Virus record (IMG/VR): IMGVR_UViG_2874920711_000009
Location: 1-44,255 of that record
From: a virus
Taxonomy: Duplodnaviria > Heunggongvirae > Uroviricota > Caudoviricetes
Direction: 5' to 3' (one strand)
DNA length: 44,255 nucleotides
Shown piece by piece: positions 30,036 to 43,250 of the stretch (the first letter of the stretch is position 1; each line of letters begins with the position of its first letter). Below the pieces are notes generated by a model, which had not been told where the DNA came from, made no database searches, and saw nothing but the letters and a program-made list of their open reading frames with translations. Both the position numbers and the translations under genes were made by a program.

Positions 30036-30178
30036 GTCGCTTTTCCTTATGTTGATTAATTAATCGTTTACGGGATTCTGAAATCCCGTTTTTTCCGTAA
30101 GCGCCCCATCAGCGACGTCTTGTGAAAATTGTCCTGTCTGGCAACAATCGCGCCCATCTATATTGATGGACACGAACG

Positions 30179-30781
30179 ATGAATTCCCAGACAACAAAAG
30201 ATATTCCCTGCTTCCGTTCTTATTTGCCTGATGCCCTGCGTTTAAGATTTGAAGATAAACTGACCATCCGGGCCATCGCTCAGCGTCTGGGTCTCAGTCA
30301 TTCCACAATACATACGCTTTTTCAGCGATTTCTTGCATCCGGTATCGCATGGCCATTGCCCGATTCAGTTTCATTCGCTCAACTTGACGCCATCCTTTAT
30401 GCCAACAGAAAGAAGGAATTAACAGAGCCTCAAATCAGAGAAGGCTCATGGCGAAAAGAACGGCGAACCAGCTATAGCCGTGAATTTAAGGTCCGTCTGG
30501 CTAAGCAGGCGTTACAGCCTGGGGCTGTTGTTGCCCGGATCGCCAGAGAACACGATATCAATGATAACCTGCTGTTTAAATGGAAAAGCCAGTACGAGGA
30601 CGGCTTACTGAGCGATGATGACATACAGGAATGCATGCCTGTCCCGGTGGCACTGACTGATACGCCGGAGCCGACCAGACCAGTTACAAATCCCTTCTGG
30701 CGTAACAAGCATGATGAGCGCCCTGAGGGGCTCCCGGAAACGTCCCACGGTGCGAGCTGCATCTTAAATCAGGTGTGGTAA
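30179..30781 (+). CDS. IS66-family TnpA-like protein (HTH)
   Basis: ORF track; 3' end differs from copy B by a G4/G5 homopolymer length. Confidence 0.7.
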   Translation: MNSQTTKDIPCFRSYLPDALRLRFEDKLTIRAIAQRLGLSHSTIHTLFQRFLASGIAWPLPDSVSFAQLDAILYANRKKELTEPQIREGSWRKERRTSYSREFKVRLAKQALQPGAVVARIAREHDINDNLLFKWKSQYEDGLLSDDDIQECMPVPVALTDTPEPTRPVTNPFWRNKHDERPEGLPETSHGASCILNQVW

Positions 30782-30847
30782 AACTGTTTGACCCTCTCAC
30801 TCCGGAACTGTTACGGGCGCTAATCCGCGAAATGAAAGGGGTATCCG

Positions 30848-31195
30848 ATGATAACGCTGCCGACCGGTACCAGAATCTGGATCATCGCTGGCATCACAGA
30901 TATGCGTTGTGGCTTCAATGGCCTGGCTTCGAAGGTGCAGAACACGCTGAAAGATGACCCGTTCTCCGGGCATATCTTCGTCTTCCGGGGCCGCAGTGGC
31001 AAAATGGTGAAAATACTGTGGGCCGATCGTGACGGGTTATGCCTGTTCGCCAAACGCCTGGAACGGGGCCGCTTCGTCTGGCCGGTGACCCGGGAAGGGA
31101 AAGTGCACCTGACGCCAGCTCAGTTATCCATGCTACTGGAGGGGATCGCGTGGCAACATCCCAAACGGACAGAACGGCCTGGCATCCGGATATAA
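30848..31195 (+). CDS. IS66-family TnpB
   Basis: 115-aa ORF typical of IS66 orf2. Confidence 0.8.
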   Translation: MITLPTGTRIWIIAGITDMRCGFNGLASKVQNTLKDDPFSGHIFVFRGRSGKMVKILWADRDGLCLFAKRLERGRFVWPVTREGKVHLTPAQLSMLLEGIAWQHPKRTERPGIRI

Positions 31196-31214
31196 CCCGT
31201 GATAAAACAAGGGA

Positions 31215-40538: not shown

Positions 40539-42094
40539 TTATTTTACAGACGAGAAGTTCCAGGGCAGCAGTTCATGCACTTGGTTCGACGGCCAGTCAT
40601 TGAGCTTCTCGATCACTTCGCGCAACCAGTCCTCCGGCTCCACTTCGTTCTGTTTGCAGGTGACCAGCAGACTGTAGATGATCGCCGCACTTTCTCCTCC
40701 CTTGTCTGAGCCGAAAAAGAGATAATTTTTTCTTCCAACCGCCACCGATCGTAACGCGTTTTCACCGATGTTGTTGTCTATTTCCACCCAGCCGTCACGA
40801 CAGAACTCGTTCAGCGCATTCCAGTGATTCAGGATATAGTCGAACGCCTTCGCCATCTCCGCATATTTCGACAGCGTTTTCCTCTGCAACTGTATCCAGT
40901 CGTACAACGACTGCATCAACTGGACGCTTCTGGCTTTTCTGACTGCAAGCCGTTCCTCTGCCGGACTGCCACGTATCTCCGCTTCTATGTCGTATAACTC
41001 TGCTATCCGTCTGAGCGCTTCCTGAGTCATTTCTGTCGGACGGCGCACATCCTCGTCATGGATTTTTCGGCGGGCGTGGGCCAGGCACCCGGCTTCCTTC
41101 ACCCGGCCCGTTTCGTACAGTACGTTATAACCTGCATAGGCATCAGCCTGCAGTACGCCCTGATACTTTGCCAGGTGGAGCTGCGGATGTTCTCCTTTGC
41201 GATCTGCCGAATACGCGAACCAGACGGCTGCCGGCAGGGATGAACCCGCATTACGATCATCCCTGACGTATACCCACAGACGACCCGTTTTCGTCTTTCC
41301 GTTCCCCGGGGCCAGTACTTTCACCGGAGTGTCATCTGCGTGCACCTTTCCTGCCTCCAGAACATAGTCATTCAGCGCTATATACAGAGGACGGAGTTTG
41401 TCTGCCATTTCTGATACCCAGCGCACCATGGTATTACGGCTCAGCTCCACGCCCTGTCGCGCGTATATTTCTGACTGGCGATATAAAGGGATATGTTCCA
41501 TATATTTGCTGACCAGGATCCGTGCAAGTAACCCTGCACTGGCATAACCGCGTTCGATCGGTTTAGGGGGAAGTGGTGCCTGAACGATGACATCACACCG
41601 GCTACAGGCCAGTTTGGGACGTATGGTTTCGATAACTTTAAAGGCGGTATTAATGATATCCAGTTGCTCTGAGATTGTTTCCCCCATTTCTTTCAGAACA
41701 CCTCCACAGGCCGGGCAACTGGTTTCAGCAGGCAGAAGGCGATGTGTCTCCCGGGGATTCAGGCTTACTGGCGATCGGGTTTTCTGACGGGGACTGGTGT
41801 CAGGTGAATCTGTGACTGACGATGCATCTTCCAGAAGATTTCTGGCTGTGTTCAGCCGGTTTTCCAGTTCCGACAGTCGTTTTTCTGCCTGTCGGATCTG
41901 ATTTTCAAGCTTATGACGCTTTTTCTCTGAACTCTGGCCGAACAACATACGACGCAACCTGTCGAGTTGCGCTTTCAGCCGTTCAATTTCCTGCTCATAG
42001 CCCGCGACCTGACAGGCATACTGTCGAAGCCGACTCTGTTGCTTACGCAACATGGCTTTAAGCAGCTCAATATCATCGGGAGTTCATTGTTCAT
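40539..42094 (-). CDS. IS66-family transposase TnpC (504-aa ORF intact from 42053; first 14 codons out of frame at a C3 run)
   Basis: ORF track 40539..42053; copy A has CCCC where copy B has CCC at the N-terminus. Confidence 0.8.
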
Positions 42095-42113
42095 TCCCTT
42101 GTTTTATCACGGG

Positions 42114-42461
42114 TTATATCCGGATGCCAGGCCGTTCTGTCCGTTTGGGATGTTGCCACGCGATCCCCTCCAGTAGCATGGATAACTGAGCTGGCGTCAG
42201 GTGCACTTTCCCTTCCCGGGTCACCGGCCAGACGAAGCGGCCCCGTTCCAGGCGTTTGGCGAACAGGCATAACCCGTCACGATCGGCCCACAGTATTTTC
42301 ACCATTTTGCCACTGCGGCCCGGAAGACGAAGATATGCCCGGAGAACGGGTCATCTTTCAGCGTGTTCTGCACCTTCGAAGCCAGGCCATTGAAGCCACA
42401 ACGCATATCTGTGATGCCAGCGATGATCCAGATTCTGGTACCGGTCGGCAGCGTTATCATC
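42114..42461 (-). pseudogene. IS66-family TnpB, frame break as given
   Basis: 63-aa fragment 42114..42305; copy A has the intact 115-aa version. Confidence 0.7.
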
Positions 42462-43131
42462 GGATACCCCCTTTCATTTCGCGGATTAGCGCCCGTAACA
42501 GTTCCGGAGTGAGAGGGTCAAACAGTTTTACCACACCTGATTTAAGATGCAGCTCGCACCGTGGGACGTTTCCGGGAGCCCCCTCAGGGCGCTCATCATG
42601 CTTGTTACGCCAGAAGGGATTTGTAACTGGTCTGGTCGGCTCCGGCGTATCAGTCAGTGCCACCGGGACAGGCATGCATTCCTGTATGTCATCATCGCTC
42701 AGTAAGCCGTCCTCGTACTGGCTTTTCCATTTAAACAGCAGGTTATCATTGATATCGTGTTCTCTGGCGATCCGGGCAACAACAGCCCCAGGCTGTAACG
42801 CCTGCTTAGCCAGACGGACCTTAAATTCACGGCTATAGCTGGTTCGCCGTTCTTTTCGCCATGAGCCTTCTCTGATTTGAGGCTCTGTTAATTCCTTCTT
42901 TCTGTTGGCATAAAGGATGGCGTCAAGTTGAGCGAATGAAACTGAATCGGGCAATGGCCATGCGATACCGGATGCAAGAAATCGCTGAAAAAGCGTATGT
43001 ATTGTGGAATGACTGAGACCCAGACGCTGAGCGATGGCCCGGATGGTCAGTTTATCTTCAAATCTTAAACGCAGGGCATCAGGCAAATAAGAACGGAAGC
43101 AGGGAATATCTTTTGTTGTCTGGGAATTCAT
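42457..43131 (-). CDS. IS66-family TnpA-like protein
   Basis: 224-aa ORF ending just before tnpB start. Confidence 0.7.
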   Translation of the reverse strand: MNSQTTKDIPCFRSYLPDALRLRFEDKLTIRAIAQRLGLSHSTIHTLFQRFLASGIAWPLPDSVSFAQLDAILYANRKKELTEPQIREGSWRKERRTSYSREFKVRLAKQALQPGAVVARIAREHDINDNLLFKWKSQYEDGLLSDDDIQECMPVPVALTDTPEPTRPVTNPFWRNKHDERPEGAPGNVPRCELHLKSGVVKLFDPLTPELLRALIREMKGGIR

Positions 43132-43250
43132 CGTTCGTGTCCATCAATATAGATGGGCGCGATTGTTGCCAGACAGGACAATTTTCACAAGACGTCGCTG
43201 ATGGGGCGCTTACGGAGAAATTGTAGAGCGGTTCATTGGAGGGCTTCGTA

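What the first reader, a model, noticed from the sequence alone, without database searches (positions are those of the whole stretch)
30097..43213. Two copies of the same IS66-family element differ at six homopolymer runs: internal evidence that many frame breaks may be sequencing errors
Copies A (30097..32802) and B (40507..43213) were aligned by eye. Every difference found is a one-base homopolymer length change: A G4 at 30727..30730 vs B G5; A G4 at 30838..30841 vs B G5; A C4 at 31229..31232 vs B C3; A C5 at 31518..31522 vs B C4; A G4 at 31648..31651 vs B G5; A C3 before the G4 at 32001 vs B C4. No substitutions were noticed. These differences explain why tnpC is split in A but intact in B, and why tnpB is intact in A but broken in B. 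Copies of one IS in a genome are usually identical, so this pattern points to homopolymer miscalls (typical of uncorrected long reads). The same process would explain breaks in D, FII, T, H (C5 run at 13422..13426), J, W, lysB, X, N, O, P, Q and the Tfa N-terminus.
Basis: seen in the sequence. Interest (0 to 1): 0.55.

Follow-up and report, generated by a model that had tools for sequence, protein, structure and literature searches.

The report
Homopolymer sequencing errors, not biology
The two insertion-sequence copies differ only because the deposited Shigella dysenteriae genome drops single bases in runs of G or C, an assembly artefact that also falsely breaks most, but not all, of the broken-looking prophage genes here.

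Summary
The window is 100% identical to GenBank CP026824.1, a Shigella dysenteriae-lineage chromosome. It holds a degraded P2-like prophage carrying IS630, IS2 and two inverted copies of ISSfl3 (IS66 family). The copies differ at 7 sites, not 6. All are one-base length changes in G/C runs, with no substitutions. At every site, 10 IS copies from five sister assemblies and 2 E. coli ISSfl3 references carry the longer run, so each difference is a private deletion (4 in A, 3 in B). Across 2125-44255 the window has 35 private deletions, all in G/C runs, no insertions and about 4 substitutions. The rate rises with run length: 0.3% at 3, 10% at 4, 44% at 5, 75% at 6. A/T runs are spared. Sisters have 0-2 private indels each. 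Three corrections apply. B's 'intact' tnpC is an artefact, because the miscalled -1 plus a real 44-bp deletion restores frame. The breaks in D (nonsense codon), J (77-bp deletion), the Tfa N-terminus and one FII frameshift are real and shared with sister assemblies (D, FII and Tfa with Illumina-read contigs). One reported coordinate is wrong. The finding is ordinary and of low interest.

The parts
30097..32802 (+). ISSfl3 (IS66 family) copy A, 2706 bp. It has no target-site duplication and abuts a truncated gpA.
   Evidence: 99.6-99.7% identity to annotated ISSfl3. Termini are GTAAGCGCCCC. Flanks are TTTTTTCC and TTATCAGG.
40507..43213 (-). ISSfl3 copy B, 2707 bp, inverted relative to A, with the 8-bp target duplication GGAGAAAT on both sides.
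30727..30730 (+). Miscall in copy A: G4 should be G5. Lies in tnpA.
   Evidence: All 10 sister IS copies and 2 references have G5.
30838..30841 (+). Miscall in copy A: G4 should be G5. Lies at the tnpA/tnpB junction.
31626..31629 (+). Miscall in copy A: G4 should be G5. Lies in tnpC.
31999..32001 (+). Miscall in copy A: C3 should be C4. Lies in tnpC.
42319..42321 (-). Miscall in copy B: C3 on the + strand should be C4.
42078..42080 (-). Miscall in copy B: G3 on the + strand should be G4. It corresponds to C4 at A 31229-31232 and removes the true tnpC start.
41789..41792 (-). Miscall in copy B: G4 on the + strand should be G5. It corresponds to C5 at A 31518-31522. Together with the real 44-bp deletion it restores frame and creates the false 'intact' 504-aa tnpC.
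31553..31554 (+). Junction of a real 44-bp deletion in tnpC of copy A, between 9-bp direct repeats TCCCCGGGA. The same junction in B is at 41758/41759.
   Evidence: Shared by all 12 lineage copies and absent from the E. coli references.
40539..42053 (-). Spurious 504-aa tnpC ORF of copy B. It starts at Met14, reads about 11 residues out of frame, and re-enters frame after the 44-bp deletion.
3487..3490 (.). Private deletion: G4 should be G5.
   Evidence: 4 of 4 informative Illumina-read contigs have G5.
5404..5406 (.). Private deletion: G3 should be G4. Lies in the D/FI intergenic region.
6730..6733 (+). Private deletion: G4 should be G5. Lies in FII.
6789..6793 (+). Private deletion: G5 should be G6. 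Lies in FII.
7802..7805 (+). Private deletion: G4 should be G5. Lies in tape measure gene T.
9049..9052 (+). Private deletion: G4 should be G5. Lies in T.
10129..10131 (+). Private deletion: C3 should be C4. Lies in T.
10210..10213 (+). Private deletion: C4 should be C5. Lies in T.
13422..13426 (-). Private deletion: C5 should be C6. Lies in tail fibre gene H.
   Evidence: 8 of 8 sister loci have C6.
16828..16829 (-). Private deletion: C2 should be C3. Lies in W.
   Evidence: 8/8
19148..19150 (-). Private deletion: C3 should be C4. Lies in lysB.
   Evidence: 8/8
19760..19763 (-). Private deletion: C4 should be C5. Lies in the holin gene.
   Evidence: 8/8
20025..20029 (-). Private deletion: C5 should be C6. 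Lies in the X region.
   Evidence: 8/8
20118..20120 (-). Private deletion: G3 should be G4. Lies in the X region.
   Evidence: 8/8
22093..22094 (-). Private deletion: C2 should be C3. Lies in capsid gene N.
   Evidence: 8/8
22996..22998 (-). Private deletion: C3 should be C4. Lies in O.
   Evidence: 10/10
23400..23402 (-). Private deletion: G3 should be G4. Lies in O.
   Evidence: 10/10
23578..23580 (.). Private deletion: C3 should be C4. Lies in the O/P region.
   Evidence: 10/10
23662..23665 (+). Private deletion: G4 should be G5. Lies in terminase gene P.
   Evidence: 10/10
23713..23716 (+). Private deletion: G4 should be G5. Lies in P.
   Evidence: 10/10
24115..24117 (+). Private deletion: G3 should be G4. 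Lies in P.
   Evidence: 10/10
26212..26215 (+). Private deletion: G4 should be G5. Lies in portal gene Q.
   Evidence: 10/10
26541..26543 (+). Private deletion: G3 should be G4. Lies in Q.
   Evidence: 10/10
26808..26811 (.). Private deletion: C4 should be C5. Lies just downstream of Q.
   Evidence: 10/10
27956..27959 (.). Private deletion: G4 should be G5. Lies in an accessory gene (163-aa ORF in sisters).
   Evidence: 7/7
28680..28683 (.). Private deletion: C4 should be C5.
   Evidence: 7/7
39481..39484 (.). Private deletion: G4 should be G5. Lies in the terminal repeat of IS2.
   Evidence: 5/5
39545..39547 (.). Private deletion: C3 should be C4. Lies in the cox region.
   Evidence: 5/5
4962..4964 (-). 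REAL break in gpD: an in-frame TGA where relatives have GGA.
   Evidence: The identical sequence is in four Illumina-read contigs L018-L021.
6932..6935 (+). REAL lineage frameshift in FII: G4 where E. coli relatives have G5.
   Evidence: It differs from L004 and L005 but not from Illumina-read contigs L018-L020.
16117..16123 (-). REAL 77-bp deletion in gpJ at the 7-bp repeat ACGATTC.
   Evidence: No sister differs here, and J is 215 aa in L024 and L025.
32799..35090 (-). gpA (replication endonuclease) truncated by IS A to 763 aa, from about 940 aa.
996..2148 (-). IS630-family insertion (343-aa DDE_3 transposase) in a VasI/TagO-like gene. Boundaries are good to +/-2 bp.
38163..39492 (-). IS2 insertion (121-aa and 301-aa ORFs) with the 5-bp duplication GGTTG.

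Best explanation
The seven differences between the two ISSfl3 copies are consensus errors in the deposited assembly, GenBank CP026824.1. So are 28 further single-base deletions elsewhere in the window. The sequencing and consensus process under-called G/C homopolymers by one base, and the probability of an under-call rose steeply with run length. Because the errors are stochastic per run, each IS copy drew its own set (4 in A, 3 in B), so two truly identical copies look different. The true sequence of both copies is the 2710-bp form seen in sister strain CP027027.1. That form has intact tnpA (224 aa) and tnpB (115 aa), and a tnpC truly split (123 + 382 aa) by a 44-bp slippage deletion. The errors sit on top of a truly degraded P2-like prophage of Shigella dysenteriae, with four IS insertions, truncated gpA, a nonsense codon in D, a 77-bp deletion in J and one real frameshift in FII. 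Shown here: the errors are private to this record, deletion-only, G/C-specific, run-length-dependent and absent from the independent sister assemblies (Illumina-read contigs cover 2125-12908 and 32774-38191 only). Inferred: the platform was PacBio CLR without short-read polishing.
For: The window is 100.000% identical to CP026824.1. At all 7 A/B differences, 10 IS copies from 5 sister assemblies and 2 E. coli ISSfl3 references carry the longer run. Across 2125-44255 there are 35 strictly private one-base deletions, 0 insertions and about 4 private substitutions. The deletion rate by true G/C run length is 2/632 at 3, 13/129 at 4, 17/39 at 5 and 3/4 at 6. A/T runs show 0/111 at length 5 and 0/41 at length 6. 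G/C against A/T gives p = 2e-19, and 35 deletions to 0 insertions gives p = 6e-11. Sisters have 0-2 private indels and 1-2 private substitutions each. The window's indel-to-substitution ratio against the sisters' gives p = 1e-7. Rates measured outside the IS predict 3.16 errors per copy, and 4 and 3 were observed. The error-free inter-IS stretch (32803-38163) is explained because it has only 18 G/C runs, all of length 4. That gives an expectation of 1.8 errors and P(0) = 0.15. In 8 kb of core-genome flank in the same record, the only indels against E. coli are three G/C-run deletions, in flk, mnmC and mepA, among 141 substitutions. Sister assemblies give full-length T, H, W, lysB, holin, X, N, O, P and Q. 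Literature: PacBio-only assemblies carry systematic single-base deletions, mostly in G or C homopolymers 4-6 nt long, even at high coverage (PMC8574707). The closed PacBio Shigella genomes of Kim et al. [quoted passage not shown]
Against: The sister assemblies come from related strains, not from the same isolate. Formally, then, the private deletions have not been shown to be absent from this strain's DNA. No reads or platform metadata were available. The link from CP026824.1 to the Kim et al. PacBio set rests on my own recollection and on neighbouring accessions being S. dysenteriae records (CP026808-CP026822), not on a direct look-up. Two run-length changes (T6 at 13285-13290 and C7 at 39981-39987) are shared with CP027027.1, so they may be real. 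One substitution (T at 32444, A at 40865) is present in both window IS copies and in no sister, and the error model does not explain it.
Confidence: 0.93

Rival explanations
1. The deletions are real mutations of this strain. Under this reading, slippage at G/C tracts in a mutator or relaxed-selection background, as part of Shigella genome decay, has truly diverged the two IS copies and pseudogenised the prophage.
For: Shigella genomes do accumulate pseudogenes. This prophage carries undoubted real lesions: a nonsense codon in D, a 77-bp deletion in J, and IS insertions. The comparison genomes are sister strains, not the same isolate.
Against: A real process would have to mutate 44% of all G5/C5 runs and 10% of G4/C4 runs while causing only about 4 substitutions in 42 kb. 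It would also have to make no insertions and spare A/T runs of the same length. It would have to frameshift conserved core genes (mnmC, flk, mepA). Sisters with the same substitution divergence have 0-2 indels. The spectrum matches a documented platform artefact.
Confidence: 0.03
2. The differences are sequencing artefacts from a platform other than PacBio, such as nanopore, 454 or Ion Torrent. The conclusion about biology is unchanged, but the technology is different.
For: No platform metadata could be retrieved.
Against: From my own knowledge, nanopore, 454 and Ion Torrent errors affect A/T runs as well and include insertions. Here 0 of 422 A/T runs of length >=4 are affected and there are no insertions. 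The G/C-specific, deletion-only pattern at runs of 4-6 is what PMC8574707 reports for PacBio-only assemblies. The accession sits in a block of S. dysenteriae records that I recall as the CDC PacBio set criticised in PMC8795385.
Confidence: 0.07
3. The two IS copies are different real variants of ISSfl3 that inserted independently.
For: Genomes can hold diverged IS copies. E. coli ISSfl3 copies differ from these at about 8 substitutions.
Against: A and B share every substitution, and the 44-bp deletion, that distinguishes this lineage from the references. They differ by no substitution at all. In five sister assemblies the two copies at the same two sites are identical or differ at a single position.
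Confidence: 0.01

Closest known systems
Residual homopolymer deletion errors in unpolished PacBio CLR bacterial assemblies (as described by ARAMIS, PMC8574707, and noted for the Kim et al. 2018 Shigella genomes in PMC8795385)
   Same: The errors here are single-base, deletion-only and concentrated in G/C runs of 4-6. They persist in a finished 'complete' genome and create false frameshifts and pseudogenes, including in core genes.
   Different: Nothing substantive differs. The platform for this particular record was inferred, not read from metadata.
ISSfl3 (IS66 family) of Shigella and EIEC
   Same: The copies are 99.6-99.7% identical to annotated ISSfl3. They have GTAAGCG termini, an 8-bp target duplication (copy B), and the tnpA-tnpB-tnpC layout with IS66 Pfam domains.
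   Different: Both copies, and all 10 sister copies, carry a 44-bp deletion that splits tnpC. This variant is therefore probably non-autonomous. Copy A lacks a target duplication and adjoins a roughly 555-bp deletion of gpA.
P2-like prophage at the flk-pdxB locus of E. coli
   Same: Gene order is collinear with E. coli prophages at 95-99% identity, from ogr and D through the tail, lysis and head genes to A, cox, C and int.
   Different: The prophage is degraded. It has IS630, IS2 and two ISSfl3 insertions, truncated gpA, a nonsense codon in D, a 77-bp deletion in J and one real frameshift in FII.

Membership tests
Long-read (PacBio-type) homopolymer consensus error | The changes are single-base length changes confined to homopolymer runs. 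| tested here: met
   35 of 35 strictly private indels are 1 nt and lie in runs.
Long-read (PacBio-type) homopolymer consensus error | The changes are deletion-biased and G/C-specific. | tested here: met
   There are 35 deletions and 0 insertions. 33 of 173 G/C runs of length >=4 are affected against 0 of 422 A/T runs. This matches PMC8574707.
Long-read (PacBio-type) homopolymer consensus error | The error probability rises with run length. | tested here: met
   Rates are 0.3%, 10%, 44% and 75% for G/C runs of 3, 4, 5 and 6.
Long-read (PacBio-type) homopolymer consensus error | The changes are absent from independent assemblies of the same locus, including short-read assemblies. | tested here: met
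   At each site, every covering sister locus carries the longer run. Coverage is by Illumina-read Logan contigs L014-L016 and L018-L021 over 2125-12908 and 32774-38191, and by NCBI assemblies L009-L013 and L024-L031 over 10820-44255. These are sister strains, not the same isolate.
Long-read (PacBio-type) homopolymer consensus error | Conserved or essential genes are hit as often as dispensable ones. | tested here: met
   flk, mnmC and mepA in the flank of the same record each carry one G/C-run deletion, and there are no other indels in 8 kb.
Long-read (PacBio-type) homopolymer consensus error | Platform metadata or raw reads show the miscall. | not testable with these tools
   No reads or assembly comments were available. 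Kim et al. 2018 (PMC5897796) is not held.
IS66 family / ISSfl3 | Near-identity to a curated ISSfl3 copy. | tested here: met
   99.6-99.7% identity over 100% of the query to features annotated 'IS66-like element ISSfl3 family transposase'.
IS66 family / ISSfl3 | Terminal inverted repeats starting GTAAGCG. | tested here: met
   Both ends of both copies read GTAAGCGCCCC.
IS66 family / ISSfl3 | An 8-bp target-site duplication. | tested here: inconclusive
   Copy B has GGAGAAAT on both sides. Copy A has none (TTTTTTCC and TTATCAGG), consistent with an adjacent deletion of the gpA 3' end.
IS66 family / ISSfl3 | tnpA, tnpB and tnpC (DDE_Tnp_IS66) open reading frames. | tested here: met
   Pfam PF01527, PF05717, PF13005, PF03050 and PF13817 hit the called genes. 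However, tnpC is truly split by a 44-bp deletion in all lineage copies.
P2-like prophage | P2 gene order and homology (ogr, D, FI, FII, E, T, U ... H, I, J, W, V, S, R, lysis, X, L, M, N, O, P, Q ... A, cox, C, int). | tested here: met
   The region is collinear at 95-99% identity with annotated E. coli prophages L004-L007.

The most novel reading that the evidence does not exclude
A subset of the private G/C-run deletions could be real. That would mean this S. dysenteriae isolate has an unusual slippage-prone mutational regime that shortens G/C tracts genome-wide without raising substitutions. Separately, and more plausibly, the 7.7-kb early region of the prophage between the inverted ISSfl3 copies appears to be a real invertible segment, found in both orientations among S. 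dysenteriae assemblies.
Probability: 0.03. Interest if true: 0.4.

Novelty: not a real feature. Interest (0 to 1): 0.08.

Why it matters
This matters only as data hygiene. About 35 false frameshifts in 42 kb, roughly one per 1.2 kb, make this record unreliable for pseudogene counts, IS-copy comparison, prophage-integrity calls and allele typing. A published cgMLST study already excluded closed, unpolished PacBio Shigella genomes, the set I believe this record belongs to, for this reason (PMC8795385). The analysis also separates artefacts from real lesions. After correction the prophage is still defective, because of truncated gpA, a nonsense codon in D, a deletion in J, a frameshift in FII and four IS insertions. 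Both ISSfl3 copies are identical, probably non-autonomous elements with a real 44-bp deletion in tnpC.

Tried and rejected
1. I suspected that errors might be confined to repeated regions that short-read polishing cannot reach, because 32803-38163 has none. I rejected this. That stretch has no G/C run longer than 4, the expected number of errors is 1.8, and P(0) = 0.15. Unique core genes in the flank are also hit.
2. I considered that B's intact tnpC might be the functional copy. I rejected this. The ORF arises from a miscalled -1 plus a real -44 and contains an out-of-frame stretch.
3. I considered whether inversion between the IS copies explains A's missing target duplication. I rejected this, because B keeps a perfect duplication and an inversion would destroy both. 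The missing 3' end of gpA, about 555 bp, points to an adjacent deletion.
4. I looked for the record or its strain in the literature and in GTDB representatives. Searching 'CP026824' found no paper. The supplement searches were empty. The junction pattern was not in genome contigs. Kim et al. 2018 is not held. Plasmid records CP026823 and CP026825 are not in PLSDB.
5. I searched for the 44-bp-deleted ISSfl3 variant in plasmids. All ten listed top hits carry the 44 bp.

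
Full report
**Observation**

A self-comparison of the window finds one long repeat, 30090-32802 against 43220-40507, in inverted orientation. It shows 99.7% identity with 7 gaps. A base-by-base alignment places the element ends at 30097-32802 (copy A, + strand, 2706 bp) and 40507-43213 (copy B, - strand, 2707 bp).

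Inside the element there are seven one-base length differences and no substitutions. The sixth, reported as 'G4 at 31648-31651', actually reads TGGA, and the real site is G4 at 31626-31629.

**Identity of the element and its context**

- The element is ISSfl3 (IS66 family). It is 99.6-99.7% identical to annotated copies in EIEC-like E. coli. It has GTAAGCGCCCC termini and IS66 Pfam domains on its ORFs.
- The window is a P2-like prophage between flk and pdxB. It is collinear at 95-99% identity with E. coli prophages.
- Copy A sits in the 3' part of gpA. It has no target duplication, and about 555 bp of gpA is missing next to it.
- Copy B lies between the C repressor gene and int, and has a perfect 8-bp duplication, GGAGAAAT.
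- An IS630-family element (996-2148) and an IS2 (38163-39492, 5-bp duplication GGTTG) are also inserted.

**Source and sister assemblies**

I looked up the IS-truncated 763-aa gpA by exact sequence, and then two other window proteins. This recovered the source record, because the window is 100.000% identical to CP026824.1 (GCA_002949875.1).

The same look-ups recovered the same locus, with the same IS insertions, in independent assemblies:
- CP027027.1
- UYIS01000011.1
- AMJQ01000141.1
- AFFZ01000072.1 (S. dysenteriae 155-74)
- AAMJ02000010.1 (S. dysenteriae 1012)
- five more NCBI drafts
- Logan contigs assembled from Illumina runs

The protein's source names identify the lineage as Shigella dysenteriae.

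**Polarising the IS differences**

At every one of the seven sites, all 10 IS copies from five sister assemblies and two E. coli ISSfl3 references carry the longer run. Each difference is therefore a private one-base deletion, four in A and three in B.

All 12 lineage copies share a 44-bp deletion in tnpC, between 9-bp direct repeats TCCCCGGGA. In the clean sister CP027027.1, tnpC is split into 123 and 382 aa in both copies.

Copy B's 504-aa 'intact' tnpC is thus an artefact. A miscalled -1 in the C5 run, 35 nt upstream of the real -44, gives -45 and restores frame. A second miscall removes the true start. The ORF starts at Met14 and contains about 11 out-of-frame residues.

**The rest of the window**

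Sister loci cover 2125-44255. Against them the window shows:
- 35 strictly private one-base deletions (28 outside the IS copies and 7 inside)
- no private insertions
- about four private substitutions

All 35 deletions lie in G/C runs. The rate by true run length is below.

| Run type | Length 3 | Length 4 | Length 5 | Length 6 |
|---|---|---|---|---|
| G/C | 2/632 | 13/129 | 17/39 | 3/4 |
| A/T | 0/818 | 0/254 | 0/111 | 0/41 |

The statistics are as follows:
- G/C against A/T runs of length >=4: p = 2e-19
- 35 deletions against 0 insertions: p = 6e-11
- the window's 35 indels to 4 substitutions, against the sisters' pooled 3 to 15: p = 1e-7

Each sister genome has only 0-2 private indels and 1-2 private substitutions.

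Rates measured outside the IS copies predict 3.16 errors per IS copy, and 4 and 3 were observed.

The stretch 32803-38163 has no errors, which at first looked anomalous. It contains only 18 G/C runs, all of length 4. That gives an expectation of 1.8 errors and P(0) = 0.15.

In 8 kb of core genome adjoining the prophage in the same record, the only indels against E. coli are three G/C-run deletions. They lie in flk, mnmC (which is split) and mepA, among 141 substitutions.

**Which frame breaks are artefacts and which are real**

Artefacts, full-length in sister assemblies:

| Gene | Error sites (window coordinate of last base of the run) |
|---|---|
| T | 7805, 9052, 10131, 10213 |
| H | 13426 |
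| W | 16829 |
| lysB | 19150 |
| holin | 19763 |
| X | 20029, 20120 |
| N | 22094 |
| O | 22998, 23402 |
| P | 23665, 23716, 24117 (with 23580 just upstream) |
| Q | 26215, 26543 (with 26811 just downstream) |
| FII (two of its three breaks) | 6733, 6793 |

Real lesions, shared with sisters:
- D has a GGA>TGA nonsense codon at 4962-4964, also present in four Illumina-read contigs.
- FII has G5>G4 at 6932-6935.
- J has a 77-bp deletion between ACGATTC repeats at about 16117-16123.
- The Tfa N-terminal region is truncated, with a Macro-domain gene at 12352-13254 and a T deletion at 12313.
- gpA is truncated.
- tnpC carries the 44-bp deletion.

Two changes are ambiguous: T6 at 13285-13290 and C7 at 39981-39987. 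They are shared only with CP027027.1, the closest sister. That sister also shares a real 23-bp duplication in parM.

**Mechanism**

The spectrum is deletion-only, G/C-specific, steeply dependent on run length, independent between the two IS copies, and blind to gene essentiality. That is the signature of a consensus-calling artefact, not of mutation.

It matches what has been reported for PacBio-only bacterial assemblies: systematic single-base deletions, mostly in G or C homopolymers of 4-6 nt, despite high coverage (PMC8574707). A Shigella cgMLST study states that the closed PacBio genomes of Kim et al. [quoted passage not shown]

That CP026824.1 belongs to that set is my recollection. It is supported only by neighbouring accessions being S. 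dysenteriae records, and I could not verify it directly.

**Rivals**

Real strain-specific slippage mutation is not formally excluded, because the comparators are sister strains and not the same isolate. It would, however, require nearly half of all G5/C5 runs to have mutated, with almost no substitutions, no insertions, immunity of A/T runs, and frameshifts in core genes. I give it about 3%.

A different error-prone platform would not change the biological conclusion. It fits less well, because A/T runs are untouched.

**Verdict**

Its main interpretation is supported. It over-reaches for D, J, Tfa and part of FII, and it has the tnpC story backwards. The feature is an assembly artefact of a kind already documented for closed, unpolished PacBio Shigella genomes, the set to which I believe this record belongs. 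Interest is low.

Noticed in passing
window 32803-40506; L009, L011, L013: The 7.7-kb segment between the two inverted ISSfl3 copies (gpA through the C repressor gene) is inverted relative to its flanks in three sister assemblies: AMJQ01000141.1, AFFZ01000072.1 and AAMJ02000010.1. It is not inverted in the window, CP027027.1 or UYIS01000011.1. This looks like an IS-mediated inversion polymorphism. The window orientation keeps B's target duplication, so it is probably ancestral.
   Followed up: partly
window 31553/31554 and 41758/41759: Both IS copies, and all 10 sister copies, carry a 44-bp deletion in tnpC between 9-bp direct repeats TCCCCGGGA. This ISSfl3 variant therefore has a split transposase gene yet sits at two sites. 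The E. coli copies examined (L001-L003) and the ten listed top Shigella and E. coli plasmid hits keep the 44 bp.
   Followed up: partly
after window 30621 (IS A) and the equivalent position in B; L009, L011, L012, L013: An 8-bp insertion in tnpA, which splits TnpA into 161 and 72 aa, is present in both IS copies of four sister assemblies. It is absent from both copies in the window and in CP027027.1. This suggests concerted change between the two copies.
   Followed up: no
window 32444 and 40865: Both window IS copies have T (A on the + strand in B) where all sister copies and references have C. This is the only substitution private to the window's IS copies, and it is present in both. It could be a concerted real change or a systematic miscall, and it remains unresolved.
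   Followed up: no
window 30089-30096 and 32803-32810: Copy A has no target-site duplication, and about 555 bp of the 3' end of gpA is missing beside it. This is consistent with an IS-adjacent deletion.
   Followed up: partly
window 996-2148 and 38163-39492: There are two further IS insertions. One is an IS630-family element (343-aa transposase) in a VasI/TagO-like gene. The other is an IS2 with the 5-bp duplication GGTTG in the prophage early region. One of the miscalls, G5>G4 at 39481-39484, lies in the IS2 terminal repeat.
   Followed up: partly
window 12352-13254: A 300-aa Macro-domain ORF lies between tail fibre gene H and the remnant of tfa, where E. coli relatives have the tfa 5' end. 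It is present in all sister assemblies.
   Followed up: no
window 14387-14873: Diverged tandem repeats with a period of about 132 bp and 80-85% identity lie inside tail fibre gene H.
   Followed up: no
window 29770-29792: A 23-bp duplication in parM splits it into 110 and 223 aa. It is shared only with CP027027.1 and is absent from five other sister genomes. It is a real sub-lineage marker, not a homopolymer error.
   Followed up: partly
window 13285-13290 and 39981-39987: T6 where seven sister loci have T7, and C7 where four have C8. Both are shared with CP027027.1 only. They are either real in that sub-lineage or the same miscall made in two long-read assemblies.
   Followed up: partly
L017 12864, 17062, 19985 (CP026824.1 flank beyond window position 1): Core genes flk, mnmC (called as 314 and 299 aa) and mepA each carry one G/C-run single-base deletion relative to E. 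coli. The window's own position 52 (C4 where E. coli has C5) is the flk site.
   Followed up: yes
L033 (CP026822.1, S. dysenteriae 96-3162 plasmid): A 216-kb plasmid with an accession close to the source record has only 3 annotated protein features in PLSDB.
   Followed up: no
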